Sequence record: MZ501075
DNA length: 64,000 nucleotides
From: Escherichia phage IrisVonRoten
Reading direction: 5' to 3' (one strand)
A program made the translations under genes and the position numbers. This document shows positions 2,564 through 54,594 of this stretch, piece by piece (positions within the stretch are counted from its first letter, which is position 1; each line of letters begins with the position of its first letter). The notes beneath the pieces are model-generated. The model saw nothing but the letters and a program-made list of their open reading frames with translations, was not told the origin of the DNA and did no database searches.

Positions 2564-5123
2564 CGAGAATCCTTTTCACGTTATCCAGATCTTTACATAC
2601 AGCAATAAACTTATCATCCTTGTACTTGCTGTGGTCTGGATGCTCTTTATCCATCGCAGCTAATTTCTTATACTCGAAATCTGCATCAAGTAGCATTTCT
2701 TTAACGTAACGAGTATATTCGTCATCATCAATACAAGCGATTGATGGGTGCTGTTTCTTCATCTTACCACAAGAATAGTCACGAGAACCTCCAGCTTCAG
2801 AATCTGAATCAATACCAATCGGACAGCCAGGAATACTGATACCACGGTCTTTCTGAATATTACGAATCAGGATTTCATTGTATTGGTCGATCAAATCCTC
2901 ACGAACAATAGCAACTACGGAGTCATGAACCAGCATAACAATCTTCATCTCTTGTTCTAAACCAAGAGAAATGATTTCATTATCTGCATCTACAGCACCT
3001 AAAAGGAGACTATCAGAAGAAGCAGACTGAATGATTGCGTTAAATCCAGAACGAATTTCTTCACCCTGAACGCCACGGTCCTCGGAGTGGATATTATGTA
3101 GACGACGTTTGCGACCAAAGTGACTATAGATAAATCCATGATTCTTGATCTGATCGTGGCACTTATCAATCCAACGCTTAAGCTGTGGGAATTGACTAAA
3201 GTAAGTCTCAATGTACTCTTTAGCATCTGCAACAGTACATTCAACAAACGGTTCACCAGTTTTGGCTGCTTGTTCGAGCAATGCTTCGTTAACAGAATGT
3301 GCTACTTTAGCCGGGCCAGAACCATACAAAATACCAAAGGTAATTGCCTTAGCTGCCTGACGTAGAGCTGGGAACAGCTTCTTAACATCACGAGGTTCAC
3401 ATTGCAATTTAAATACCATGTGGGCGATGTTAGAGTGGAAGTCAGGGTATTTATCAGGTTCATTTCTCATGTTGATAAATACTTGTTGCATATTTCTATC
3501 ACCAGATAGAACAGCAGCATAATAAACTTCCGCAGTTGTTAAGTCCCATGCGATTACACGGTATCCAGGTGGTGCAACTACACAACCCTTAATGATAGAT
3601 TCATCACGGGGTAACTGTTGCAGGTTCAGTTTACCAGAAGAACTCAGACGACCAGAAGTAGTCATGTGTTCGTGGAAACCAGTACGAATGCAACCATCAG
3701 CATCAATGCTCAGAAGAATCTTCTCAACGTAAGTAGAGATCAGCTTAGTCAGCTTACGAATCTCTAGTAGAGTCTTAGCAATTGGATGCTGTGTAGACAA
3801 TTCGTTCAGAGCTTCTGCGTCTGTAGAGTCTGCTCCAGTATCCGTCAATTTACCCGTTGGAGTTAAGCCAACATAATCAAACAGAAGAACACGGAGTTGT
3901 TTAACAGAGTTTGGGTTAAACGCTTCGTTCTGATCTTTCTCTAGCTGAACGACTTCTGGATAAGTATACAGCTTTTCACGAGCTTTATTCAGATTATGGG
4001 TTAACTGGTACTGAGCTTCTTTTAAACGATCAATAGAAATAGGTACACCACGATCCTCAACACGCTGGAGAAATACACAACCAGGCATTAGGACATCATA
4101 ATACAGACTGCAAAGTTTTTCATTCTTCTCAATTTTTGGTAAGAAGAAGTTGTGCAAACGTATGGTGGCATCGGTATCTTTTGCAGCGTAAGGCCACATA
4201 ATATCAAACGGAATTAAATCATAGGTGAAATCTTCTTTCTTGATTTTATGTGCTTTGCAGTAATCATCTTTGAACTTATCTAGTTCAAAGTCATAGTCAC
4301 CCATATCTGTATACTTCATTGCTAGAGATTTCAAGCCATGAGTACCACGACGCTCATCTAGAACATAATGCTGCAACATTGTATCATGGAGTCTGCGTTC
4401 TTTATGTGCTTTATCAAAAGTAAGTCCCAGATGGTACTTATAAAAGTGCATATCAAACTTCAAGTTGTGAAAAACAATAGTGTGGTTTTCACTATCCAGA
4501 ATTTTCTGGAGATAATATACTGCAACCTCTGTGAGACAATCAGAATCGATATATACACCCTGATACTCTTGGTGAGATATAGAAACACCAAGCAGATAAC
4601 CATCTCGACAGTATAGTGCTGAGGTTTCGGAGTCGAATGCGACAGGTCCGATAACCATATTATACACCATCTTGATATATTCTTCTGCCTCATCAGGGTC
4701 AGTAATAGGGCGGTAATCACCAGCTTTTGCAATCTTCTCACGACCATTGATAATATCGTGGATATTCTCTACTGTTGCATCAAAAACTGGTTTCATTTCA
4801 GGTTTAAAGTGTAACTGGGCTGGGCTGATACTCGCAATCCAGTTAGCATATCCATTATACTCTACACGTTTACCGGTATAATCACCAATACCTTTCTTAC
4901 CTGCAAAGTACAAGAAAGGTTCGGCACCTACCAGTATAACAAAATCATAGTCACTCGGGTCAAATGGGTTTTCCGGAGTCCCGATAGTAATATGCTTTTT
5001 GAGCAAACGACCGGACAACTTCTCGTTACACATATGGAATACATCAACTTCCTCGCCGTATAGCTGGAAATGTTTATCATAACGAGTGTTGTTTAGAGCT
5101 TTATCAACTACTGCGATTTTCAA
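2556..5123 (-). CDS. DNA polymerase, family A, with 3'-5' exonuclease domain
   Basis: Exo I motif FDSETSAL, motif B RQAAKAITFGILYG, motif C LVHDS. Confidence 0.9.
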   Translation of the reverse strand: MKIAVVDKALNNTRYDKHFQLYGEEVDVFHMCNEKLSGRLLKKHITIGTPENPFDPSDYDFVILVGAEPFLYFAGKKGIGDYTGKRVEYNGYANWIASISPAQLHFKPEMKPVFDATVENIHDIINGREKIAKAGDYRPITDPDEAEEYIKMVYNMVIGPVAFDSETSALYCRDGYLLGVSISHQEYQGVYIDSDCLTEVAVYYLQKILDSENHTIVFHNLKFDMHFYKYHLGLTFDKAHKERRLHDTMLQHYVLDERRGTHGLKSLAMKYTDMGDYDFELDKFKDDYCKAHKIKKEDFTYDLIPFDIMWPYAAKDTDATIRLHNFFLPKIEKNEKLCSLYYDVLMPGCVFLQRVEDRGVPISIDRLKEAQYQLTHNLNKAREKLYTYPEVVQLEKDQNEAFNPNSVKQLRVLLFDYVGLTPTGKLTDTGADSTDAEALNELSTQHPIAKTLLEIRKLTKLISTYVEKILLSIDADGCIRTGFHEHMTTSGRLSSSGKLNLQQLPRDESIIKGCVVAPPGYRVIAWDLTTAEVYYAAVLSGDRNMQQVFINMRNEPDKYPDFHSNIAHMVFKLQCEPRDVKKLFPALRQAAKAITFGILYGSGPAKVAHSVNEALLEQAAKTGEPFVECTVADAKEYIETYFSQFPQLKRWIDKCHDQIKNHGFIYSHFGRKRRLHNIHSEDRGVQGEEIRSGFNAIIQSASSDSLLLGAVDADNEIISLGLEQEMKIVMLVHDSVVAIVREDLIDQYNEILIRNIQKDRGISIPGCPIGIDSDSEAGGSRDYSCGKMKKQHPSIACIDDDEYTRYVKEMLLDADFEYKKLAAMDKEHPDHSKYKDDKFIAVCKDLDNVKRILGA

Positions 5124-5185: not shown

Positions 5186-6076
5186 TTATACCAAATCTTT
5201 AAGCGATTCAGCAACTAAAATTTCAATACGTTTTGCTAACATATCAATCTCTTCTTTATTTAAGTCCCCAGGGTCTTTACCTTCAGGCAGAAGAAAGTTA
5301 GCAACTACAGGTGTTAAACGCGTTTTTGTACGAATTAGCTTGGCCAGTGCTTGTGCAGCTTTATTACCAGAAGCATCATTATCTAGTAAGATAACAACAA
5401 CTTTTACACCGGCAATAATATAAGGACTGAACTTATCTGCAATGTTATCTGAAGTAAACTGATGTGTACCAAAGCAGCAGGAAGCATAGTCTATACCATT
5501 ATCCTCTAGGTTCAGCATATCAAAGATACCTTCAACTAGAATAAGAACTGGAGTATTATATCGTACAGGAAAAATTGGTGGTGAAACTTGTTTTGGTTTT
5601 ACTAAGTATTTAGGAGGGGCAGAACTGTTTATAGAACGACCCAAAAATAGGATATTGCGTCCAACAGCATCTGTGATTGGGAATACAATTCTGCCTTCCC
5701 AGTCTGCTTGGTGTTGGAAAGCAAAATATTTCTTCAAGGTCTTAGAACTTATACCCCGGAAATCACCTTCGAAAAGGTAAGCAGATTCAGGGATTGCAAG
5801 ATTCGTTGATCCATTCCTAATCTCTGAAATCTTTTTACGTACTTGCGATAGCCTTGGGGACTGTCGGTACTGAGTCTCATTAAAATAATGGTAAATGCTC
5901 GGTATACCTTTACCGAAGCCACAACTCAAGCAGTGCATAATACCTGTTTCAGGGTCAATACGCAAACTTGGGTGTTTATCGTCATGATCTGGATTGAGAC
6001 AACAGATGAGGATGTCCCCACCTGTGTCCTTATATTCAATGCCTTTCAGATCAAGTAGTTCTGTTATTCTACTCAT
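5186..6076 (-). CDS. DNA primase (DnaG-like zinc ribbon + TOPRIM)
   Basis: CCLNPDHDDKHPS...HCLSCGFGKG zinc-binding motif; acidic TOPRIM segment VEGIFDMLNLEDNG. Confidence 0.75.
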   Translation of the reverse strand: MSRITELLDLKGIEYKDTGGDILICCLNPDHDDKHPSLRIDPETGIMHCLSCGFGKGIPSIYHYFNETQYRQSPRLSQVRKKISEIRNGSTNLAIPESAYLFEGDFRGISSKTLKKYFAFQHQADWEGRIVFPITDAVGRNILFLGRSINSSAPPKYLVKPKQVSPPIFPVRYNTPVLILVEGIFDMLNLEDNGIDYASCCFGTHQFTSDNIADKFSPYIIAGVKVVVILLDNDASGNKAAQALAKLIRTKTRLTPVVANFLLPEGKDPGDLNKEEIDMLAKRIEILVAESLKDLV

Positions 6077-7545
6077 ATATCGCTGGCCTGTTCACCTGTT
6101 GAATTTTCAGCTTTGTCTTTCTTAGCACGTTTAGATTGAGCCGGCTTATCCTTCTCAATAGGGATAACGAACTCAGCTTCCATTTGAGATATATCTTCCA
6201 TTGCTAGGTTGGTAGTGTTATCCATCCGCAGGGTTTCCCAGTTCATTTTAGGCATAAACTTCACGCTATCAGAAGAACGGGTCTTAACGAAGTCAAACAT
6301 AATAGCACCTTGACCATTATCAGCTTTTGCAGCATTAAGATTAGCAGCCATGTCTGCGGAATCAAGAATCCCCTTTGACATACGTGTTCTACCATCTTGA
6401 TCAATCTGGTAAGGAGCTACACCAGCCACGTTATGCTTCTGGCAGATGGATTTGAAAGACGAGCTAACAACCATCTGTTCTTTCCAGTCGTACATATCAA
6501 TGGTTTTAGAATCTGGAAGTCGGGTTTGGTTAATATAGTCAAGTAAAGCTACTGTAACTTTATCCCCATATCTAGCAACTAATTTATTTAATTCTACGTC
6601 AACTGTTGTAATAGACAGCTCAGGGTCATAAACAATAATCATAGGAGTATGTAGTTCATACCCTTCTATTAGCTTACTTTCCATATCGTAGAAATCACTC
6701 ATCTTAGCCATTGTGTACTGTTTAACGAAGTTATCGAAAAGCTCTTCACCACCGTTAAACATCCTAGCTCTAGTTCTGGCTAATCTCAACAGAGCTGCAC
6801 CTTCTAGAGTATTATTACGCATTGCTAGTGCTGATACACCAGCTAACATGGCTAGATTACGTCTAAATACTTCATGTTCTTTCATCTCAATTGAGAAGTA
6901 TGGAGCAATATCCCCATTCAAATATTGCTGAACCTGTATGTTTGAACAGATAATGGATTTACCAGTACCACGCCAACCACCAAGCAGTAACGTTTCTGTG
7001 CGAGCTAAACCAATTTGAGCGTCGAACTCATTACAAATACCAAGAGCGATTAAGTTCAGTTTGGTATCTTCTTCTCTCTGGAAAATACGCATGTTATCTG
7101 CGTTGAATACTTTTCCAGTATTCGTTACTTTCTCTTCTAATTTTAAGTGAAGGGAGGCAACTCGGTTAAGAATTTCTCCCTGATCCAGCATTGTTAAATC
7201 TTGAAGCACGTCTGTTTCTAGAAGCTTCAGGAATAAATCCTGTGTATACTCGGCCTCTAGGACTTCAAGTGCCTGTTCCATGCTAACTTCTGGAATTTGA
7301 GTGTTAGCTAAAACGACTAGAGCTTGAGAAAGGCGGGCGTTCCTATTAGCCTCAAGCATCAGTGCGTCAATGGACGGCATTGTGTTATATTTTTTATAAT
7401 AATTCTGGACGGCTTGGTAAATTGAGGAGAAAGCGTCACTAAAATGATCTTTATGCAGTTTTGAGAATGTTTCCAATGCTATTTGCTTCTGTTCGGAAGC
7501 TAGAAGCATCTTCAACACTACAGCTTGCACGTTAAACAAGGTCAT
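6073..7545 (-). CDS. replicative helicase (DnaB-like, RecA-fold)
   Basis: Walker A GWRGTGKS; start placed at internal ATG (MTLFNV) preceded by AAAGGAGA SD; track ORF extends to 7596. Confidence 0.7.
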   Translation of the reverse strand: MTLFNVQAVVLKMLLASEQKQIALETFSKLHKDHFSDAFSSIYQAVQNYYKKYNTMPSIDALMLEANRNARLSQALVVLANTQIPEVSMEQALEVLEAEYTQDLFLKLLETDVLQDLTMLDQGEILNRVASLHLKLEEKVTNTGKVFNADNMRIFQREEDTKLNLIALGICNEFDAQIGLARTETLLLGGWRGTGKSIICSNIQVQQYLNGDIAPYFSIEMKEHEVFRRNLAMLAGVSALAMRNNTLEGAALLRLARTRARMFNGGEELFDNFVKQYTMAKMSDFYDMESKLIEGYELHTPMIIVYDPELSITTVDVELNKLVARYGDKVTVALLDYINQTRLPDSKTIDMYDWKEQMVVSSSFKSICQKHNVAGVAPYQIDQDGRTRMSKGILDSADMAANLNAAKADNGQGAIMFDFVKTRSSDSVKFMPKMNWETLRMDNTTNLAMEDISQMEAEFVIPIEKDKPAQSKRAKKDKAENSTGEQASDI

Positions 7546-32269: not shown

Positions 32270-32908
32270 ATGACCACTCGTATTTCTAAAACTCGTGCTC
32301 TAGCAACTATCAAATCTCTGGAAGCTAAAATCCGTAAAGCTACTGAACAGCAGCTTCTGATCGCTGTTGGTGAAGGTAAGGATAAAAACCAGGTTGTAGT
32401 TGGCGCTGCAATCGAAGTAGCTGATCTGTCTACTCGTATTAAGACTGATTTCCAGTCTCTGCTGGATATGATGTCCCAGCGTGATCGTATCAAAGCTGCT
32501 CTGATTAAGAGCAATGCGGAAACAATCGTTGAGATTGGCTCTCGTAAGATGACTGTTGCGGAAGCAATTGAAGCTAAGCGTTCTATGGAGCTTAAAGCTC
32601 AGCTGCTGGCTAACATGCGTAAGCAGTTCCATGCCGCTACGGTTAAGTTTAATACGCAGAAAGCACAGTTTGATGCTAAATATGAGCGTTTGCAGGATAG
32701 CATGGCTACCCGCGATAAGAAAACTTCCGAAGATGAAGTTAAAATGCAGCTCAACCTGCTGGAACTCAAGAATACTCCATTCTTGATTGATCCGCTGGAA
32801 CTGGAAAAGCTGATTAAGCAGCATGACGAGGAATATCAGGACTTTGCAACAAATGTTGACTTTGTTCTGTCCGAGTCTAACGCCTCTACCTTCATTGAAG
32901 TAGAGTAA
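32270..32908 (+). CDS. hypothetical coiled-coil protein
   Basis: 212-aa ORF. Confidence 0.6.
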   Translation: MTTRISKTRALATIKSLEAKIRKATEQQLLIAVGEGKDKNQVVVGAAIEVADLSTRIKTDFQSLLDMMSQRDRIKAALIKSNAETIVEIGSRKMTVAEAIEAKRSMELKAQLLANMRKQFHAATVKFNTQKAQFDAKYERLQDSMATRDKKTSEDEVKMQLNLLELKNTPFLIDPLELEKLIKQHDEEYQDFATNVDFVLSESNASTFIEVE

Positions 32909-33291
32909 TAATTTAAAAGCTAGTAAATCGGTAGACGAAAGCCCAAGCATCTTACCTCGCAGCAGCGGTTGAAATACGAGGTTAAATAAGACCGCTGACC
33001 ATACTATAAAGTATAATCTATTGGAGATTATGTTTATTACATCAGACATTTAATCTGACACGTAAAAACAAAGCGTCGTTGATATTACCGACACAACTTC
33101 AAAGATCAACATTTAAGTATGAAAGCTGAAAAGTTTAAAGAACTCAAACTTCTAAACTTCTAAAGCTAAAAGATGCAAAGTATTCGTTGATGATTCAAAC
33201 CCTAGATCAAAGGTACATGGCTCATAAGATATGGCCTGTGGCGCCTCTAGGCTGTTTATCGGTTTACTAGTTTCACAATTTAAAAATGTAT

Positions 33292-35749: not shown

Positions 35750-36697
35750 ATGTCTAATACTAAAAATATGAAAGAACTGACTTCTGAGCAAAAAGTAATT
35801 CGCACTATTAAACGTTGGAGTATTGGTGCTGTAGTTGGTTTAGCAGGTTTAATCCTAGCTTTTAATTCATATACTATTGTTTCTGATGGTACGGTTAAAA
35901 CCCAAACATTTCTAGGTAAAGTAGATCCTAACCCAGTATTACCTGGTTTCCATCTTGTAAACCCATTTGCATCTTTCGATACTTTTAGTACAAAAGATAT
36001 TGCTGTAAAATTAGATAAACTTCAGGTTCCTAGCCAGGATAAGTTTAAATCCACTGTTGACCTGACTGTTATGTTGCAGTTTGATGGTTCTAAGGCACCG
36101 ATCAACCGTATTAATGCGGGTACTCAAGATCAGGCTCTAGATAAGTATGTAACTGAAAAATTACTGTCTACTATTCGTGAGTTTGGTAAGTCTGTACCTA
36201 AAGCACAAGATTTGTTTGATGCTAAAATTCAAGCACAATTGCAAACTGCAATTCAACAGGAAGTTGAAGAGTATGCACGCCCCTATGGTTACACAGTTAA
36301 GCAAGTGTTCCTTCAGGATATTACATTGCCACCGGTAATTATGGAACAGGTACAGAATACCAAAGTTCGCGAAGAACAAGTTAATGCTGCGAAAGCTGAA
36401 TTAGCTCGCGTTGAACAAGAAGCACAGCAGAAGGTTAAACAAGCAGAAGCAGATCGTGAAGCTCGTAACAACCAAGCTATTGCAAACGAACGTGATGCAG
36501 ATGCTAAACTGTATGCAGCTAAGAAAGAAGCTGAAGCTAACGCTGCTCTGCAACGTACCATTACTCCTGAGATGATTCGCTGGAAGCAACTAGAAGTTGA
36601 AATGATTCGTGCTCAGAAGTATCAAGGTGGTGTACCGCAGACTGTGGTTGGCACTGGTTATGATGGCCAGATGATTATGGATATGCGTAACAAGTAA
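35750..36697 (+). CDS. SPFH/band-7 (prohibitin/HflKC-like) membrane protein
   Basis: N-terminal TM helix, SPFH-like core, Ala/Gln-rich coiled-coil C-terminus. Confidence 0.7.
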   Translation: MSNTKNMKELTSEQKVIRTIKRWSIGAVVGLAGLILAFNSYTIVSDGTVKTQTFLGKVDPNPVLPGFHLVNPFASFDTFSTKDIAVKLDKLQVPSQDKFKSTVDLTVMLQFDGSKAPINRINAGTQDQALDKYVTEKLLSTIREFGKSVPKAQDLFDAKIQAQLQTAIQQEVEEYARPYGYTVKQVFLQDITLPPVIMEQVQNTKVREEQVNAAKAELARVEQEAQQKVKQAEADREARNNQAIANERDADAKLYAAKKEAEANAALQRTITPEMIRWKQLEVEMIRAQKYQGGVPQTVVGTGYDGQMIMDMRNK

Positions 36698-36721
36698 TAC
36701 CCACACGTAATATTCGAAGTA

Positions 36722-36757
36722 AGCCCTGCGTTCCCTGGAGAGCGCAGGGCTTTTCTG
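36722..36757 (+). terminator. rho-independent terminator after SPFH gene
   Basis: AGCCCTGCG...CGCAGGGCT hairpin followed by TTTTCT. Confidence 0.7.
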
Positions 36758-36772
36758 TATTTAAGATAAGAG

Positions 36773-36806
36773 AAAAGCCCCTAAGTCTTTCGACTAGGGG
36801 CTTTTT
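36773..36806. terminator. bidirectional terminator hairpin
   Basis: GCCCCTAAG...CTAGGGGC hairpin flanked by A-tract upstream and T-tract downstream. Confidence 0.6.
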
Positions 36807-36818
36807 ATTATTGGTTCT

Positions 36819-37013
36819 TTAGAACCATATACTCTTGTTACAGCAACCACCCATACGGGAGGCCAATCTTGACTGAAAATCTACTCTAGGGGGCAGGATA
36901 AGAGTAGGCTTAAAGGCAAAGGGATTGAACGCCGGTATTTGTGTAAACATTGCTGGAGAGCAACAACGTGCTACAGGCATTGGGCAGCACGAAACAGATT
37001 TTCTGCAACACAT
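36819..37013 (-). CDS. Cys-pair-rich small protein (64 aa)
   Basis: ATG after TAAGGAGGA SD; four CC dipeptides (MCCRK, SCCP, RCCS, GGCCN). Confidence 0.45.
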   Translation of the reverse strand: MCCRKSVSCCPMPVARCCSPAMFTQIPAFNPFAFKPTLILPPRVDFQSRLASRMGGCCNKSIWF

Positions 37014-37022
37014 AATTCCTCC

Positions 37023-37439
37023 TTAGGAGTTATTACCACCATTTTGAGCTTTTGCAACTTGGCTTTGGCAGAAGCTATTAAACTTACCCATAAGTGATAC
37101 AAGCTGCTTCCCATCCTCTGTCTTTGCGAAGTCTTCGAAAAGGGCTAGTACTGCTTGTCCTTCCGTAGAAACCTGCGGTTGTTGGGTTTGCTGCTGAACT
37201 TGCTGCTGAGGCACCTGTTGCTGCATTTGTTGAGGCATTTGCGACTGCCCGCTCATTTGCTGCATCATTTGCATAGGACTCACACTTCCAGGGTTTTGCT
37301 GGAAGTGTTGCTGCATCTGTTGCGCTTCTGCTAAACGCTGTTGCAACTGTTGTAGGTAAGGATTATCCAGACCCGGAACGGGCTGCTGGGAGCCCATTGG
37401 TTGATTAAATCCGTTGTTTACAAAACCATATTTACTCAT
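37023..37439 (-). CDS. Gln/Met-rich low-complexity protein
   Basis: ATG after GGGGAGGAG SD; long PQQ/MQQ tract. Confidence 0.6.
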   Translation of the reverse strand: MSKYGFVNNGFNQPMGSQQPVPGLDNPYLQQLQQRLAEAQQMQQHFQQNPGSVSPMQMMQQMSGQSQMPQQMQQQVPQQQVQQQTQQPQVSTEGQAVLALFEDFAKTEDGKQLVSLMGKFNSFCQSQVAKAQNGGNNS

Positions 37440-37460
37440 AATGGGCTCCTCCCCTTAATT

Positions 37461-38441
37461 TTAAGCCGGCAGTTTAGCCTGCAGACCAGCCAGAGTCTGA
37501 GTGATAGCACCAAGACTTACAGCGATTTGATTAATTACCTGACCGTTAGCACCACTACCTGCAGCGATTGCTTCGCGCAGACGGCATTCATTCAGTTCGT
37601 CCTGGATACGTGCAGTAGTTACACCAGCGATTGCAGTCTGAAGCTCACAGCAACATTCAGCAAGCTGACGTTCGATAGCGTTCTGGTTAGCACACATCTG
37701 AGCCTGAACAGCGGCAAACTGGTTGTTGGTCTGAATAGACTGCTGGAAAGCAATCTGAGCAGAGTCAAACTTATCTTGAGCACGTGCGATCTGGTTAGCA
37801 GCGAAAGATTGATCCATCTGACGAGAAAGATCGAATTGACCCTGAATAACGTTACGAGTTTCAGCACAGATCTGGTTTGACAGATTAGCACCTGTACCAT
37901 AGATAGTAGTCAGAACTTGCTGAGTGCTAGCAGCTTGAGCAGCTCCCACACCGTTTACTGCGCTTAGAACAGCCCCAGTGCCCTGGTTAGCTTCTGTACG
38001 AGTAGTATTGATTGCAGCTAGAATACTTGCAGTATCTTGGTTAGAAAGGATCGCGTCCACAGCAGTCCCTTCAGCGGCAACGCCAGCACCACGGCCAAAA
38101 CCACCAAAACCACCAAATCCGCCCGTTAATAGAGCACCGATTAGGATAGCTCCGAATAGACCCATACCTTCTCCACCGAAAGCACTTGCGTTAGCTGGGA
38201 ATGCACCCATGCCAGGGAAGCCGTTAGTAAATACGTTTACTGGTTCTTGCATTTTATGTTTTCCATATTTATGACAATGTTCATCATAGTCATCTTCTTC
38301 ATCTTTATCATCGTGTTCACGATGTTCTTCTTCGTAGGCTTTGACTTTCTCCCACTTTTTCTTATCTGATTCCTCGTGACGGTGCAGTTCTGCTGCTACG
38401 CTAGCGACGGTTTCAGGACTCTTAGCTACTTCTTCTGTCAT
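37461..38441 (-). CDS. glycine-zipper membrane-associated protein with acidic His-rich N-terminus
   Basis: Start at ATG (MTEEVAK) after AGGAGGTG SD; GLFGAILIGALLTGGFGGFGGFG segment; Ala/Gln/Asn-rich C-terminus with CCC. Confidence 0.6.
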   Translation of the reverse strand: MTEEVAKSPETVASVAAELHRHEESDKKKWEKVKAYEEEHREHDDKDEEDDYDEHCHKYGKHKMQEPVNVFTNGFPGMGAFPANASAFGGEGMGLFGAILIGALLTGGFGGFGGFGRGAGVAAEGTAVDAILSNQDTASILAAINTTRTEANQGTGAVLSAVNGVGAAQAASTQQVLTTIYGTGANLSNQICAETRNVIQGQFDLSRQMDQSFAANQIARAQDKFDSAQIAFQQSIQTNNQFAAVQAQMCANQNAIERQLAECCCELQTAIAGVTTARIQDELNECRLREAIAAGSGANGQVINQIAVSLGAITQTLAGLQAKLPA

Positions 38442-38503
38442 TTTTTGACACCTCCTAGTATATAGAAAATGTGTGTCTCTTTGATCACTCATCCATAACA
38501 TAT

Positions 38504-38532
38504 ACTTTACACTACCCTGGCAAAAATGTCAA
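38504..38532 (-). promoter_or_regulatory. sigma70-like promoter for the opposite-strand cassette
   Basis: TTGACA, 17-bp spacer, TAAAGT about 55 nt upstream of the 37461-38441 start; differs from the T5 early type. Confidence 0.4.
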
Positions 38533-38648
38533 GGGGTCTTTAAAAATTGCCCCCAGATTTTTAGTGGGGTCACAAATTTCGGTCCTGACCACTTACCTGC
38601 TACCCTTAAGCACCCTGTGATTTTCCTCTAAAAAGTTAAAAAATTCAA

Positions 38649-38677
38649 TTGCTTGAATGCTAAATTCTCTGTATAAT
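38649..38677 (+). promoter_or_regulatory. T5-type early promoter
   Basis: TTGCTT, 17-bp spacer, TATAAT, then ATATATTTATAAATTTGAGAGAGG leader. Confidence 0.7.
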
Positions 38678-38707
38678 ATATTTATAAATTTGAGAGAGGA
38701 ATCTAGT

Positions 38708-39226
38708 ATGACTGTTGATGAACTAACAGAACACCTCTTATCTAGAGGGTTTGATGCAGATAAATATCATTGCTGGTTAAGCCCGGAAGGATGGCTAACA
38801 GTACCATTGTATGACTTCTCTGGGATGTTGAGAGGCTATCAGACGTATAATCCTTCTGCTCCAAAAGGTCATGGTAAATCTCCTTTTGAAGCTAAGTATT
38901 TTACTTATTCTACTACACAGTGTGTATGGGGGCTGGAAACTCTCAATGGGGATGAAAAAGTAGTATTGGTTGCGGAATCTGTATTTAAGGCTGTAGCATT
39001 ACATAACGCTGGTTATCCAGCCCTGGCAATGTTGGGTTCTTCTCCAGGAAAAGCGTTGTTAAAGCAATTGAAATTACTACCTTTTAAATTGGTAGCTGTT
39101 GGGGATAATGATCCTGCTGGTGAAAAATTTGCTAGACAATTAAATGGATTTGTTTCTCCTGTAGATGTGGATGAGATGTCTACCGAAAACTTGAAAAATT
39201 TTCTTGCTATGAAGCTAAATTTCTAA
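38708..39226 (+). CDS. small TOPRIM-like domain protein
   Basis: VLVAESVFKAV...VAVGDNDPAGEKFA resembles TOPRIM E...DxD; start placed after GAGAGAGGA SD. Confidence 0.5.
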   Translation: MTVDELTEHLLSRGFDADKYHCWLSPEGWLTVPLYDFSGMLRGYQTYNPSAPKGHGKSPFEAKYFTYSTTQCVWGLETLNGDEKVVLVAESVFKAVALHNAGYPALAMLGSSPGKALLKQLKLLPFKLVAVGDNDPAGEKFARQLNGFVSPVDVDEMSTENLKNFLAMKLNF

Positions 39227-52453: not shown

Positions 52454-53152
52454 ATGAGGATTATTTCTAAGTTCTCCGATGTGTATGATTTGCAGAACAG
52501 TTTGTTTGACCCCGATCGTGTTTGGGAGCGTAAAACTGAAGAGTTACTGGTTAAGGTAACTGATGATGCAGAAAAGAACATTGTGCATACTCGCCAAGTA
52601 TTTCGTGAAGGTTCACTATCTTTCCGTGGCGACTTCGAATACTTTGTAAACCCACTGTTTGTTGCAGGTGAAGTTTACTGGTTACACGAGTTGTACTGCT
52701 GGCATCCAGCGTTTAGCTTTAAAACGTTCGACCTCGACACTATGTTCGATAAAATGAAAGAGATGGGATTGCATGCTCGCTCTTACTTAATGGATAAGAG
52801 TCGCGGAGATGTTCGTGAAACAATGCGTGATCTGCTAGCTGAAGCAAAACCTAAAGCAGAACGTATCTTATCCGAACTACGTGTACCGATTGCATATGTG
52901 AAAGGTATTAAGAAGAACGATAACGATGATGTTCGTAACTTCGTGATTCAGACTAACATTCGTTTTCATCAGTCAGGTATTCCGTGGCAGGAAATTGAAA
53001 GTAACTTATACCGTTTACACCAGATGATCGAGCAATATATCTGGGGCGTGTTAGGAACCGGTGAACCAAATACCATTACGATTTCCGATAAGGATCGCTT
53101 AGCTGCACATGGATTTGATACTGTTACTTCTTTTAGGAATATGAAAAGATGA
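52454..53152 (+). CDS. hypothetical protein
   Basis: 232-aa ORF. Confidence 0.6.
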   Translation: MRIISKFSDVYDLQNSLFDPDRVWERKTEELLVKVTDDAEKNIVHTRQVFREGSLSFRGDFEYFVNPLFVAGEVYWLHELYCWHPAFSFKTFDLDTMFDKMKEMGLHARSYLMDKSRGDVRETMRDLLAEAKPKAERILSELRVPIAYVKGIKKNDNDDVRNFVIQTNIRFHQSGIPWQEIESNLYRLHQMIEQYIWGVLGTGEPNTITISDKDRLAAHGFDTVTSFRNMKR

Positions 53153-53574
53153 TAAAAAACTTTATTAGTTCTCTATGGCAAGGTAAATGGTATATCCTGG
53201 GAGCAGGTCTAGCGATAGGCATCGGGTTCGGTGCTTATCACTTAGTAAATAAAGTGGAGACTTTGGCGGGAGATCTTGCGGTAGCTACTAAAAAGATTTC
53301 TTCTCTAGAGACTTCCCTTAATAAGGTGAAAGCTGAAAGCGAGCTTCGTGAGACTAGAATGAATCAGTATTTCACTATGAATAATATTTCGCAAGCAGAT
53401 CTAGACAAAAAGATTAAGCAGTTAGATAAAGCTCTTAGTCGACAAGATATTATAGCTGCAAAGCCTGGATTGGTAACATTAATTGCTAAAAAGCAGAGTA
53501 AAGAGTTCGAGGAAAGATTAGCATGTCTTTCTGGTAGCCTGGAATACTGTGGGAATGAGCATAAAAATAAATAA
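53149..53574 (+). CDS. hypothetical membrane-anchored coiled-coil protein
   Basis: N-terminal TM segment then coiled coil. Confidence 0.5.
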   Translation: MIKNFISSLWQGKWYILGAGLAIGIGFGAYHLVNKVETLAGDLAVATKKISSLETSLNKVKAESELRETRMNQYFTMNNISQADLDKKIKQLDKALSRQDIIAAKPGLVTLIAKKQSKEFEERLACLSGSLEYCGNEHKNK

Positions 53575-54253
53575 AGAAATCTTTAATAATGATTTAGAAG
53601 CTCAGGGCAGAACAGTAAGATTAGTTGGAGAGTATAAGCATAATAAGACAAAAGCACAATTTAAGTGCCTTATATGTTCTAATATATGGTTAACAGCCCC
53701 TACAAATGTTAGGAATAAGGGTAGAGGGTGTCCAAAGTGTGCTGGCAATGAAAAATTAACCAAAGATAAGATTAACTTACTTCTTAGTCCTAGAAAAATC
53801 ACATTACTAAGTGAATATACTAATTCTGCTTCTAAGTTAAAATTTTTATGTAATACGTGCTCCCATCAATGGGAGACAACTACCAACCATGTTTTACATG
53901 GTAGTGGTTGCCCAAATTGTGCTAAAACAGCTTGGGATACTCAAGGATTTTTATACATATTTATATCTGATAAAGGTATAAAAATAGGAATAAGTAAGAA
54001 TGTACAAAAGAGACTTTTAGAAGTTAGGTCTTGCAGTGGATTTAAAGACTTGAGAATACTATCTTACTATCTTTGTGGTAATGGTTCAAAAGAAGAAACA
54101 GCTAAAATAGAAGCTGACCTACATAGTATCTATAAAGCTAAAAGATGCAATTATACAGGGTTTAGTGGTAGTACAGAGTTTTTCAATGTTCCCCCAAAAG
54201 AAGTAGAACAGTATATAGAAGCACATTATGAGGTGCGTAAATGCGCAAAATAA
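53549..54253 (+). CDS. T5orf172-domain (GIY-YIG-like) protein with zinc ribbons
   Basis: CPKCAG and CPNCAK ribbons; GFLYIFISDKGIKIGIS motif. Confidence 0.55.
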   Translation: MGMSIKINKEIFNNDLEAQGRTVRLVGEYKHNKTKAQFKCLICSNIWLTAPTNVRNKGRGCPKCAGNEKLTKDKINLLLSPRKITLLSEYTNSASKLKFLCNTCSHQWETTTNHVLHGSGCPNCAKTAWDTQGFLYIFISDKGIKIGISKNVQKRLLEVRSCSGFKDLRILSYYLCGNGSKEETAKIEADLHSIYKAKRCNYTGFSGSTEFFNVPPKEVEQYIEAHYEVRKCAK

Positions 54254-54594
54254 AACTTGGAATACTGCTCGCAGCCGCAATCACAATCACAGGCTGTGCA
54301 CAAGAAATAAAGCCAGAACCTACACATGAGCTACCAACAGCCCATGTGGATTGGCCTAAAGGACTTCAGCCTTGTAGCTTTGATTTCAAATTCGAAAAGA
54401 AATTAGCTACAAATGGCGAAGATGGCGTAGTAGTTGTTGTACCATATAAAGATTGGAATATGTTGGCAAAATGCCGGGAGGCAGAATATTCATATATCTC
54501 ACGATTGACTAGTATGGTTTGCTTCTATCGCCAAGATTTACAAGAAAAACGTTGCTTAGTTTACTATCCACCCATTAACAATAGGAAAGATTAA
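54241..54594 (+). CDS. lipoprotein
   Basis: Signal peptide with lipobox ITGC. Confidence 0.55.
   Translation: MRKIKLGILLAAAITITGCAQEIKPEPTHELPTAHVDWPKGLQPCSFDFKFEKKLATNGEDGVVVVVPYKDWNMLAKCREAEYSYISRLTSMVCFYRQDLQEKRCLVYYPPINNRKD

What the first reader, a model, noticed from the sequence alone, without database searches (positions are those of the whole stretch)
36810..38535. Opposite-strand, GC-richer three-gene cassette inside the plus-strand early block
Three minus-strand genes with strong Shine-Dalgarno sites sit between plus-strand genes. They encode a 326-aa protein with an acidic His-rich N-terminus, a glycine-zipper hydrophobic segment and an Ala/Gln/Asn-rich tail; a 138-aa Gln/Met-rich low-complexity protein; and a 64-aa peptide with four Cys-Cys dipeptides. 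The cassette has a sigma70-like promoter (TTGACA, 17 bp, TAAAGT) unlike the surrounding T5-type promoters. It is bracketed by terminator hairpins and looks visibly more GC-rich than neighbouring phage DNA. This fits a horizontally acquired moron. Function is unknown; a membrane-active or bacteriocin-like protein, a superinfection-exclusion factor or a metal-binding peptide are speculative options.
Basis: partly seen in the sequence, partly recalled or inferred. Interest (0 to 1): 0.8.

Follow-up and report, generated by a model that had tools for sequence, protein, structure and literature searches.

The report
Conserved three-gene phage membrane cassette
This is a real, self-contained three-gene operon of T5-like phages (T5.077-T5.079) encoding a membrane-anchored coiled-coil protein with an invariant triple cysteine and two small partner proteins; some close relatives lack it, unrelated phages carry it as a unit, and its function is unknown.

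Summary
Three minus-strand genes (326, 138 and 64 aa) lie at 36819-38441, each with a strong Shine-Dalgarno site. They have a TTGACA-17-TAAAGT promoter and a strong terminator.

They are not new ORFs. They match T5.077, T5.078 and T5.079 ("ORF 326aa/138aa/64aa" in BF23), with the annotated promoter P12 and a bidirectional terminator.

The "moron" reading is partly right.
- **For:** the unit is autonomous and sits in a variable slot. DaisyDussoix lacks it cleanly, between 7-bp repeats. Chee130_1 has NadR/PnuC there without it. The same trio is an opposite-strand island in a distant 114-kb contig, an N4-like contig and Pseudomonas phage KPP23.
- **Against:** about 80% of T5-like records carry it under purifying selection. 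The GC excess mostly reflects amino-acid composition, and P12 is an ordinary T5 early promoter.

The 326-aa protein belongs to a large, unnamed, phage-only family. Its members share a Gly-zipper hydrophobic segment, a roughly 155-residue helix and a near-invariant CCC motif. Shorter relatives lie near peptidoglycan hydrolase genes in 6 of 15 loci.

Function is unknown. My best guess (about 0.35) is an envelope-acting complex linked to lysis or envelope control.

The parts
38504..38532 (-). Sigma70-type promoter TTGACA-17-TAAAGT, equivalent to T5/BF23 promoter P12
   Evidence: Consensus scan, 10/12 matches. Annotated as P12 in T5 and BF23. Identical hexamers occur in the distant relative L014. 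The adjacent stretch 38450-38509 is nearly invariant in 20 T5-like sequences (pi = 0.003).
38442..38503 (-). 5' UTR with Shine-Dalgarno AGGAGG (38451-38456)
   Evidence: Read from the sequence. A ribosome-binding site is annotated in BF23.
37461..38441 (-). Gene 1, 326 aa (T5.077 ortholog). It has an acidic His-rich N-terminal domain with a confident helix at 12-41, a Gly-zipper hydrophobic segment at about 93-113, a long helix at 169-323, and an invariant CCC at residues 263-265.
   Evidence: ORF; phrog_8119, E = 6e-197; homolog alignments; AF2 model; hydropathy; dN/dS 0.04-0.23.
37023..37439 (-). Gene 2, 138 aa (T5.078 ortholog). It has a conserved N-terminal helix (LQQLQQRLAEAQQMQQ), a variable P/Q/M-rich linker, and a conserved C-terminal domain (LFEDFAKTEDGKQLV..GKFNSFCQS).
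   Evidence: ORF; phrog_7894; alignment across four phage lineages; dN/dS 0.05-0.34. No kinase domain was found despite the legacy name 'kapc'.
36819..37013 (-). Gene 3, 64 aa (T5.079 ortholog). It is a basic (+7), Pro-rich peptide that starts MCC, carries four CC pairs and has an NPF motif.
   Evidence: ORF. It is intact at >=80% aa identity in 220 phage records, most of which leave it unannotated. Counterparts starting MCC, with at least one further CC, sit in the same position in L014, L015 and KPP23; an NPF motif is seen in L014 and L015 only. Third-codon-position diversity is 2.4 times that of positions 1 and 2.
36773..36805 (-). Rho-independent terminator of the operon (hairpin followed by UUUUCUCUU), equivalent to the T5 'efficient bidirectional terminator' and BF23 ter1
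   Evidence: Fold of -21.3 kcal/mol, z = -5.6. Annotated in T5 and BF23.
36721..36752 (+). Convergent terminator hairpin of the SPFH gene. It carries the T5 major-nick consensus (Pu|GCGC, about 36741-36746). It is retained in cassette-less phages, so it belongs to the backbone and not to the cassette.
   Evidence: Fold of -25 kcal/mol, z = -4.6; terminator scan; nick annotation in T5 and BF23; present in DaisyDussoix.
36754..38674 (.). The segment that is present or absent among T5-like phages. About 1,914 bp are bounded by the 7-bp direct repeat TCTGTAT (36754-36760 and 38668-38674).
   Evidence: Junction comparison between the window and DaisyDussoix.

Best explanation
**What it is (shown)**
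- The window comes from a Tequintavirus, 98.3% identical to chee24 and 96.2% to T5 over this region.
- The cassette is the T5.077-T5.078-T5.079 operon.
- It is an autonomous, non-universal early transcription unit with promoter P12, three translationally coupled genes and a strong terminator.
- It sits between the SPFH gene and the Toprim gene.
- All three genes are under purifying selection.
- The trio moves as a unit between unrelated virulent phages.

**What gene 1 is (shown)**
- It belongs to a large, unnamed family seen only in phage records and phage-sized contigs.
- Defining features are a Gly-zipper hydrophobic segment with no positive charge before it, about 200-220 further residues that are largely helical, and a near-invariant Cys-Cys-Cys.

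**How it most likely works (inferred, about 0.35)**
- Host RNA polymerase transcribes the operon early.
- The 326-aa protein inserts its Gly-zipper segment into the inner membrane.
- It oligomerises through a roughly 155-residue coiled coil about 23 nm long, which is on the order of the periplasm's width.
- The Cys triplet staples the oligomer, either by disulfides or by a metal-thiolate cluster.
- Its extra acidic His-rich N-terminal helix domain co-occurs strictly with the 138-aa and MCC proteins. That domain probably docks them on the cytoplasmic side.
- The complex acts on the cell envelope of the infected cell. It may work as an accessory to lysis or envelope control, in the manner of spanins, viral fusion proteins or the phiX174 H pilot protein. 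It is not a toxin or a lysogenic-conversion factor.
For: **Identity and annotation:**

**Regulatory elements:** promoter and terminator. The promoter/5'UTR is nearly invariant (pi = 0.003). The same hexamers occur in L014.

**Coding status and selection**
- dN/dS is 0.04-0.34.
- Diversity by codon position is 0.054/0.032/0.172, 0.033/0.014/0.078 and 0.019/0.021/0.048 for the three genes.

**Accessory status**
- About 220 cassette-positive records against about 270 with the neighbouring Toprim gene at >=80% identity.
- DaisyDussoix lacks it cleanly; chee130_1 has NadR/PnuC there without it.

**Mobility as a unit:** KPP23, L014 and N4-like L015, and the related four-gene island in PY100.

**Family**
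- 357 cluster representatives at E<=1e-3.
- CCC is invariant in the closer sets and present in 72 of 83 members overall.
- The hydrophobic segment averages KD17 = 1.71 in 83 members.

**Structure:** AF2 with 83 sequences gives helix 12-41 at pLDDT >90 and helix 169-323 at pLDDT about 70-87.

**Envelope or lysis link**
- Pfam-level peptidoglycan hydrolases lie within +/-3 kb of the CCC gene in 6 of 15 distinct short-family loci. Five pass the Pfam threshold and the GH19 in L018 is a weak hit.
- Binomial p is about 0.01-0.03.
- In a crAss-like contig the gene directly follows that GH19 enzyme and a small hydrophobic, holin-like ORF.
- A family profile weakly matches the influenza HA2 fusion peptide plus coiled coil (E = 0.003, 20 bits).

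**Phage-only distribution:** no relatives in 100,044 bacterial and archaeal genomes by motif scan.
Against: - No homology to any characterised family. Negative searches: Pfam, NCBIfam, PADLOC, PDB sequences and Foldseek.
- hhalign finds no relation to phiX174 H (probability 0.5%). It finds none to the phage's own i-spanin-like protein (0.1%).
- The window already encodes holin, endolysin, an i-spanin-like protein and a lipoprotein that could be its o-spanin. A canonical lysis role would therefore be redundant.
- In T5-likes the cassette is about 16-18 kb from the holin/endolysin genes.
- Topology is unresolved. N-terminal tails of the short family carry no Lys/Arg and an Arg usually follows the hydrophobic segment. 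By the positive-inside rule, this would put the coiled coil in the cytoplasm.
- The 138- and 64-aa proteins have no signal peptides.
- The HA2 match is marginal and may be driven by composition.
- The endolysin proximity is modest statistically. It could simply reflect a position at the end of structural modules.
- I found no expression or phenotype data in the literature I could search.
Confidence: 0.35

Rival explanations
1. Superinfection exclusion or inter-phage competition. The early-made membrane complex blocks DNA entry or envelope penetration by other phages, as T4 Imm/Sp or T5 Llp do by other means.
For: - It has an early sigma70 promoter and is an autonomous unit.
- It is an accessory gene set in a variable slot that also hosts other optional cargo such as NadR/PnuC.
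- It has a hydrophobic membrane segment.
- In T1-like, 9g-like and Seuratvirus phages the related module lies next to tail-fibre genes and a cor-like lipoprotein gene. Exclusion genes typically sit there.
Against: - No homology to any known exclusion protein, and no PADLOC hit.
- A 3-5 gene module conserved across at least six phage groups with an invariant CCC is more elaborate than known exclusion factors.
- The cassette is nearly identical in T5 and BF23. From general knowledge these phages use different receptors, so any exclusion would have to be independent of the receptor.
Confidence: 0.2
2. Metal or thiol chemistry. The Cys- and His-rich proteins bind Zn, Ni, Cu or an Fe-S cluster, or sense redox state, as their primary function (sequestration, delivery or sensing). 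The membrane anchor would be secondary.
For: - CCC is near-invariant.
- The 64-aa peptide has four CC pairs, a pattern known from metallothioneins (general knowledge).
- The N-terminal domain is His-rich, reaching HHYHHHHHEHY in Epseptimavirus relatives.
- Family members end in GCCGC, GCGCGCN, GFGCGCGN or CHHHEE.
- A neighbouring gene in L006 gives a weak ferritin-like hit, E = 6e-4, below the Pfam cut-off.
Against: - Across lineages the small peptide keeps only MCC plus one CC.
- Met and His richness is not conserved outside T5-likes.
- The peptide is rich in aromatic residues (6 Phe, 1 Trp), unlike metallothioneins.
- No metal-binding family was detected.
- No metal transporter or enzyme lies in the cassette.
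Confidence: 0.12
3. Virion-delivered ejection or pilot protein. The family forms a coiled-coil conduit or membrane-inserting device that is released from the particle at infection, like phiX174 H or the T7/P22 ejection proteins.
For: - The architecture matches H (328 aa): an uncharged N-terminal Gly-rich hydrophobic peptide followed by a long Q/N-rich helix.
- The N/Q/S/T/A-rich, low-charge helix composition resembles extracellular fibrous proteins.
- Short-family genes lie at the end of tail modules or before head-tail connector genes.
Against: - No homology to H.
- In T5 the operon lies in the early region behind a promoter with a full -35 element.
- KPP23 labels ORF080 as a 'virion protein' but ORF072-074 only as hypothetical.
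- The SHIN8 fusion lacks the family's N-terminal half, yet the phage was isolated as viable.
Confidence: 0.08
4. Recently acquired foreign moron encoding a toxin or bacteriocin-like membrane-damaging protein.
For: - GC is 0.46-0.48 against 0.39 for the window.
- It lies on the opposite strand.
- It has a Gly-zipper segment of the kind also seen in class II microcins (general knowledge).
Against: - The GC excess is explained by amino-acid composition. GC3 of gene 1 is 0.337. Its codon choice is the phage's own (GCT 36 of 52 Ala, GGT 20 of 33 Gly).
- The cassette is old in the lineage.
- It has no leader peptide and no export or immunity gene.
- No homologs were found in bacterial genomes.
Confidence: 0.05

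Closest known systems
Phage 'morons' (autonomous accessory transcription units, as defined in lambdoid phages)
   Same: It has its own promoter and terminator. It is inserted between backbone genes on the opposite strand. It is present or absent among close relatives and is shared with unrelated phages.
   Different: The phage is virulent, and no prophage or bacterial copies were found. Codon composition is not foreign. The unit holds three co-evolving genes rather than one. It is ancient and retained by most of the lineage.
Two-component spanins (lambda Rz/Rz1 type)
   Same: A membrane-anchored protein has a long helical, Cys-containing domain roughly as long as the periplasm is wide. A small Pro-rich, Cys-containing gene lies in the same operon. 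Relatives often lie next to endolysin and holin genes.
   Different: No sequence homology. The N-terminal tail has no positive charge. The small protein has no signal peptide or lipobox. The phage already encodes an i-spanin-like protein and a lipoprotein elsewhere.
Microviridae DNA pilot protein H (phiX174)
   Same: Almost the same length (328 vs 326 aa). Both have an uncharged N-terminal Gly-rich hydrophobic peptide (MFGAIAGGIASALAGG vs GLFGAILIGALLTGG) followed by a long Q/N-rich helix.
   Different: hhalign probability is 0.5%. H has no CCC motif. H is a virion protein of an ssDNA phage, whereas this gene is an early gene of a tailed phage.
Class I viral fusion proteins (influenza HA2)
   Same: A Gly-rich hydrophobic 'GLFGAI...' peptide is directly followed by an N/Q/I-rich coiled coil. 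The family profile matches HA2 residues 3-149 weakly (E = 0.003).
   Different: The score is marginal (20 bits) and likely convergent or compositional. There is no C-terminal membrane anchor and no receptor-binding subunit.
Metallothionein-like and SlyD/HypB-type Cys/His metal-binding tails
   Same: CC doublets, an N-terminal MCC, C-terminal GCCGC/GCGCGC tails and His runs.
   Different: Cys density is lower. The peptide is rich in aromatic residues. Only part of the Cys pattern is conserved across lineages. No family match was found.

Membership tests
Moron (autonomous phage accessory unit) | Own promoter and own terminator | tested here: met
   Promoter with 10/12 consensus matches, annotated as P12. 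Terminator folds at -21.3 kcal/mol, z = -5.6.
Moron (autonomous phage accessory unit) | Present or absent between otherwise collinear relatives | tested here: met
   DaisyDussoix lacks it at a 7-bp repeat junction. Chee130_1 lacks it. About 220 of roughly 270 T5-like records carry it.
Moron (autonomous phage accessory unit) | Nucleotide composition foreign to the host phage | tested here: not met
   The GC excess is explained by amino-acid composition (expected 0.440-0.453). The residual is z = 1.3-1.7. GC3 of gene 1 is z = 0.57.
Moron (autonomous phage accessory unit) | Expressed from a prophage or benefits a lysogen | tested here: not met
   All carriers are lytic-type phage genomes. A motif scan of 100,044 bacterial genomes found no relative.
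Two-component spanin | Sequence relation to known i-spanins | tested here: not met
   hhalign against the window's own i-spanin-like protein gives probability 0.1%. The only PHROG hit is family 8119, which has unknown function.
Two-component spanin | Partner outer-membrane lipoprotein with signal peptide and lipobox, encoded adjacent or embedded | tested here: not met
   The 64-aa and 138-aa proteins have no hydrophobic leader or lipobox. The only lipobox ORF in the window is 54241-54594.
Two-component spanin | N-terminal membrane anchor followed by a periplasmic coiled coil | tested here: inconclusive
   The hydrophobic segment and a 155-residue helix are predicted. The charge distribution does not favour an N-in orientation.
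Two-component spanin | Located in the lysis cassette | tested here: not met
   In the window the holin and endolysin genes lie about 16-18 kb away. In short-family relatives, 6 of 15 loci have a peptidoglycan hydrolase within 3 kb.
phiX174 H-type DNA pilot protein | Sequence homology to H | tested here: not met
   hhalign probability 0.5%.
phiX174 H-type DNA pilot protein | Virion component ejected with the DNA | not testable with these tools
   No proteome data were accessible. KPP23 labels ORF080, but not the homologs ORF072-074, as a virion protein.
Metallothionein-like peptide (64-aa product) | High density of conserved Cys in CC/CxC clusters with few aromatic residues | tested here: not met
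   Cys make up 12.5% in four CC pairs, but the peptide has 6 Phe and 1 Trp. Only MCC plus one CC is conserved across lineages.
cAMP-dependent protein kinase ('kapc', the legacy name of the 138-aa gene) | Protein kinase catalytic domain | tested here: not met
   No Pkinase hit in Pfam at E<=1. The protein is a Q-rich low-complexity sequence.
Known anti-phage defence or exclusion proteins | Match to a PADLOC model | tested here: not met
   No hits for any of the three proteins.

The most novel reading that the evidence does not exclude
The T5 cassette is one form of a previously unrecognised gene module carried widely by virulent phages: Demerecviridae, N4-like, T1-like, Queuovirinae, PY100-like, crAss-like and other metagenomic phages. 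Its core is a Gly-zipper membrane peptide on a long coiled-coil rod carrying a near-invariant triple cysteine. It would perform an envelope step not covered by the holin/endolysin/spanin/disruptin scheme. Examples would be membrane fusion or rupture, or control of lysis timing in phages such as T5 whose lysis genes lie in the early region.
Probability: 0.2. Interest if true: 0.75.

Novelty: new variant of a known kind. Interest (0 to 1): 0.5.

Why it matters
- **Model phage gap.** T5 is a classical model phage, yet this well-expressed-looking operon has stayed "hypothetical" for about 20 years.
- **Scale of the family.** This analysis ties it to a family with hundreds of cluster representatives across very different phage groups. 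The family has a strikingly conserved CCC motif and recurrent partner genes, but no Pfam entry and no known function.
- **If the envelope or lysis link is right,** it would add a new component class to phage lysis and envelope biology. It might also help explain how T5-like phages control lysis timing.
- **If the exclusion or metal-binding readings are right,** it would be a new accessory system relevant to phage competition and to phage engineering.
- **Practical corrections.**
  - The 64-aa gene is missing from most GenBank records.
  - It is annotated in the wrong frame in KPP23.
  - The "cAMP-dependent protein kinase" label on the 138-aa gene is spurious and has spread to other records.

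Tried and rejected
**Family and structure searches that found nothing**
- Pfam, NCBIfam and PADLOC scans of all three proteins: nothing above threshold.
- PHROGs: only families of unknown function (8119, 7894, 9288, 16490).
- PDB sequence searches with single proteins: nothing meaningful.
- The first AF2 model, from 17 sequences, was too poor to use (pLDDT 48.5).
- The second, from 83 sequences, gave a long single helix. Foldseek against BFVD and PDB returned only insignificant coiled-coil hits such as vimentin.
- Rfam scan of the cassette: only sub-threshold chance hits.

**Specific homology tests that failed**
- hhalign against phiX174 H.
- hhalign against the window's own i-spanin-like protein.

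**Collection scans**
- The genome-contig scan failed with the divergent alignment.
- With the short-family alignment it found no relatives.
- The viral-contig scan for the T5-type protein returned only T5-like isolates.

**Literature**
- Searches for T5.077-079, accession numbers, T5 transcriptomes, and glycine-zipper or Cys-rich phage proteins found nothing relevant.
- The Mahata et al. T5 toxicity screen does not mention these genes.
- The Zivanovic et al. T5 virion proteome paper is not held.

**Ideas rejected**
- Met-rich Cu(I) binding by the 138-aa protein. The Met richness is not conserved outside T5-likes.
- A MazG-like or His-rich partner in T1-like modules as an analogue of the fused His-rich domain. 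No family support was found.
Full report
**1. What is there**

The window is a T5-like phage genome. The region 36500-38900 is 98.3% identical to Escherichia phage chee24 and 96.2% identical to T5. Three minus-strand ORFs lie at the stated place:
- 37461-38441 (326 aa)
- 37023-37439 (138 aa)
- 36819-37013 (64 aa)

Each has a strong Shine-Dalgarno site. The third SD overlaps the stop codon of the second gene.

These are the orthologs of T5.077, T5.078 and T5.079. The BF23 record calls them "ORF 326aa", "ORF 138aa" and "ORF 64aa". It annotates ribosome-binding sites, promoter P12 and the bidirectional terminator ter1. The existence of the unit has therefore been on record since about 2004. Its function has not. 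All names are "hypothetical", except a spurious "cAMP-dependent protein kinase (kapc)" label on the 138-aa gene. Pfam does not support that label.

**2.

| Claim | Result |
|---|---|
| Sigma70-like promoter | TTGACA-17-TAAAGT at 38532-38504 |
| Terminator after the 64-aa gene | Strong hairpin at 36773-36805, -21.3 kcal/mol, z = -5.6 |
| Second hairpin | 36721-36752, terminator of the convergent SPFH gene; contains the T5 major-nick consensus |
| Hairpin upstream of the promoter | None; folds like shuffled sequence |
| Promoter differs from T5 promoters | Not supported; annotated among the T5 promoters |

"Bracketed by terminators" is therefore only half true.

On GC content, the three genes have 0.464-0.475 GC, against 0.387 +/- 0.032 for 89 other ORFs. 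Recoding their amino acids with the phage's own codon usage already predicts 0.440-0.453. The residual is z = 1.3-1.7. GC3 of the largest gene is 0.337, against 0.309 for the background. Its Ala and Gly codons are the phage's preferred GCT and GGT. The GC richness reflects Ala, Gly, Gln, Cys and Pro content, not foreign origin.

**3. Real genes under selection**

Among seven T5-like sequences, dN/dS is 0.04-0.23 for the 326-aa gene and 0.05-0.34 for the 138-aa gene.

Across 20 T5-like sequences, nucleotide diversity by codon position was:

| Gene | Position 1 | Position 2 | Position 3 |
|---|---|---|---|
| 326 aa | 0.054 | 0.032 | 0.172 |
| 138 aa | 0.033 | 0.014 | 0.078 |
| 64 aa | 0.019 | 0.021 | 0.048 |

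The 64-aa ORF is intact at >=80% amino-acid identity in 220 phage records. Most of those records do not annotate it. The promoter and 5'UTR (38450-38509) are almost invariant, with pi = 0.003, while the terminators vary more.

**4. Optional and mobile**

About 270 phage records carry the neighbouring Toprim gene at >=80% identity. About 220 carry the cassette proteins.

- In Tequintavirus DaisyDussoix the SPFH gene is followed directly by the Toprim gene. The junction is TTCTGTATA. In the window, TCTGTAT occurs at 36754-36760 and again at 38668-38674. The 1.9-kb segment is therefore bounded by a 7-bp direct repeat. This fits either a microhomology deletion or an insertion.
- Epseptimavirus chee130_1 has NadR/PnuC in the slot and no cassette.
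- Stitch, EscoHU1 and GSW6 have both.

The same trio, in the same order, is an opposite-strand island in three other settings:
- a distant 114-kb contig (L014), which has the identical promoter hexamers and its own terminator
- an N4-like contig that carries a virion RNA polymerase gene (L015)
- the 63-kb Pseudomonas phage KPP23, where two similar hairpins flank it

In KPP23 the third gene is annotated in the wrong frame. The real product is a 60-aa peptide that starts MCC and has four CC pairs.

The cassette therefore behaves as a mobile accessory unit. It is nonetheless ancient and well adapted in T5-likes.

**5. The proteins**

*326-aa protein.* AF2 with an 83-sequence alignment predicts:
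- a confident helix at 12-41 (pLDDT >90)
- a disordered acidic, His-rich stretch
- an unmodelled Gly-zipper hydrophobic segment (KD19 = 1.72)
- one long helix at 169-323 (pLDDT about 70-87)

Cys263-265 are invariant.

*Wider family.* A profile search of 1.84 billion cluster representatives found 357 relatives at E<=1e-3.
- Most are 240-300 aa and lack the N-terminal domain.
- They keep the hydrophobic segment (mean KD17 = 1.71) and about 200-220 following residues.
- CCC is present in 72 of 83 members examined.
- None has a Pfam domain or an informative name.
- All occur on phage-sized contigs or in phage genomes. Examples are T1-like phages, Queuovirinae, PY100, eiAU, some Epseptimaviruses, and crAss-like and other metagenomic phages.
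- A motif scan of 100,044 bacterial and archaeal genomes found none.

*138-aa protein.* It has a conserved N-terminal helix, a variable P/Q(/M)-rich linker and a conserved C-terminal domain with one invariant Cys. It occurs only in the same phages as the long form of gene 1.

*64-aa peptide.* Across lineages it keeps an N-terminal MCC and a second CC; an NPF motif recurs in two of the three distant versions.

The N-terminal domain of gene 1 and these two small proteins co-occur in all four lineages. They are absent from the short family. I infer that they interact.

*Short-family partners.*
- A conserved 95-104-aa beta-rich protein lies directly downstream.
- A Q/M-rich protein often lies upstream.
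- Cys-rich small proteins and Cys/His-rich termini recur.

**6. Clues to function**

No homology to any characterised protein was found.

- *Architecture.* It resembles three classes of membrane-active coiled-coil proteins:
  - phiX174 pilot protein H, with no homology (probability 0.5%)
  - i-spanins, with no homology to the phage's own (probability 0.1%)
  - class I fusion proteins, where the family profile weakly matches the HA2 fusion peptide plus coiled coil (E = 0.003, 20 bits)
- *Context.* In 6 of 15 distinct short-family loci a Pfam-level peptidoglycan hydrolase lies within 3 kb. Five of the six pass the Pfam threshold. The sixth, the GH19 in L018, is only a weak precomputed hit. The binomial p is about 0.01-0.03. 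In a crAss-like contig the gene directly follows that GH19 enzyme and a small hydrophobic, holin-like ORF.
- *Counter-evidence.* The window has its own holin, endolysin, i-spanin-like protein (53149-53574) and lipoprotein (54241-54594). The charge distribution around the hydrophobic segment does not favour a classical N-in anchor.

**7. Verdict**

- The "horizontally acquired moron" interpretation is partly supported. The unit is autonomous, optional and mobile. Its composition is not foreign, it is not recent, and its promoter is not unusual.
- Function remains unknown.
- I commit, at about 0.35, to an early-expressed, membrane-inserted, Cys-stapled coiled-coil complex acting on the cell envelope, as an accessory to lysis or envelope control.
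- The rivals are superinfection exclusion (0.2), metal or thiol chemistry (0.12), a virion-delivered ejection protein (0.08) and a foreign toxin (0.05).
- All hosts named in phage records are Gram-negative. Hosts of the metagenomic contigs are unknown, so I do not claim that the family is restricted to diderm bacteria.

Noticed in passing
window 36721-36752 (nick consensus at about 36741-36746): The T5 'major single-chain interruption' consensus (Pu|GCGC; the 32.6% nick) lies inside the stem-loop of the SPFH-gene terminator hairpin, right next to the cassette. The hairpin and the motif are retained in cassette-less DaisyDussoix. A similar GCGC-containing hairpin follows the cassette in the distant relative L014 (5521-5549).
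   Followed up: partly
window 53149-54594: An i-spanin-like gene (141 aa, 53149-53574) and a lipobox lipoprotein gene (117 aa, 54241-54594; a likely o-spanin) are separated by a 234-aa ORF (53549-54253). That ORF has T5orf172/MUG113, CapR and zinc-finger domains and low GC3. It looks like a homing-endonuclease-type insertion that splits a spanin pair.
   Followed up: partly
L005 (KPP23, AB910392) 5969-6151: GenBank ORF072 of KPP23 is annotated in the wrong frame (5971-6165). The conserved product is the 60-aa MCC...CC...CC...CC peptide in the neighbouring frame.
   Followed up: yes
window 37023-37439; T5 record AY587007: The name 'kapc: cAMP-dependent protein kinase catalytic subunit' for the 138-aa Q-rich protein has no domain support. 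It has spread to other phage records (ESCO30/40, EH3, UTK0010).
   Followed up: yes
L025 (Salmonella phage polluks) 3249-3839; also rokbiter L026: Some Epseptimaviruses carry a second, T1-like-type member of the CCC family just downstream of the L-shaped tail-fibre gene. In polluks it is broken into a 123-aa ORF and a 67-aa ORF, and the motif has decayed to YCC. It looks like a decaying pseudogene.
   Followed up: partly
L027 (Escherichia phage SHIN8) 2614-3222: A 202-aa 'tail fiber protein' is a chimera. Residues 1-137 match the conserved tail-fibre N-terminal domain (phrog_4128 and others). Residues 122-202 match the C-terminus of the CCC family (phrog_9288). A deletion apparently fused two adjacent genes.
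   Followed up: partly
window 36819-38441: Synonymous divergence falls steeply from 5' to 3' along the operon. Against phage fp01, dS is 0.43, 0.11 and 0.05 for the three genes. The 64-aa gene is unusually conserved even at silent sites. The cause could be a recombination mosaic or an added RNA-level constraint; this is unresolved.
   Followed up: partly
L021 (EscoHU1) 3238-3768: An HNH endonuclease gene is inserted between the cassette's terminator and the SPFH gene in EscoHU1. This is another sign that the junction is a hot spot for mobile DNA.
   Followed up: no
L006 6855-7148, L018 4783-5073, L031 1377-1673, L057-L063: Short-family CCC genes are almost always followed by a conserved 95-104-aa beta-rich protein (MASPI..QN.G..Y.KK...PS.TNYDF). 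Q/M-rich proteins are often nearby, DUF7841 proteins appear twice, and one neighbour gives a weak ferritin-like hit. This wider module has no annotation anywhere.
   Followed up: partly
window 32300-33049 (minus strand): A 249-aa minus-strand ORF has GC1 = 0.43 and GC3 = 0.54, the reverse of the coding pattern elsewhere in the window. It is probably an antisense artefact of a plus-strand gene rather than a second opposite-strand gene.
   Followed up: no
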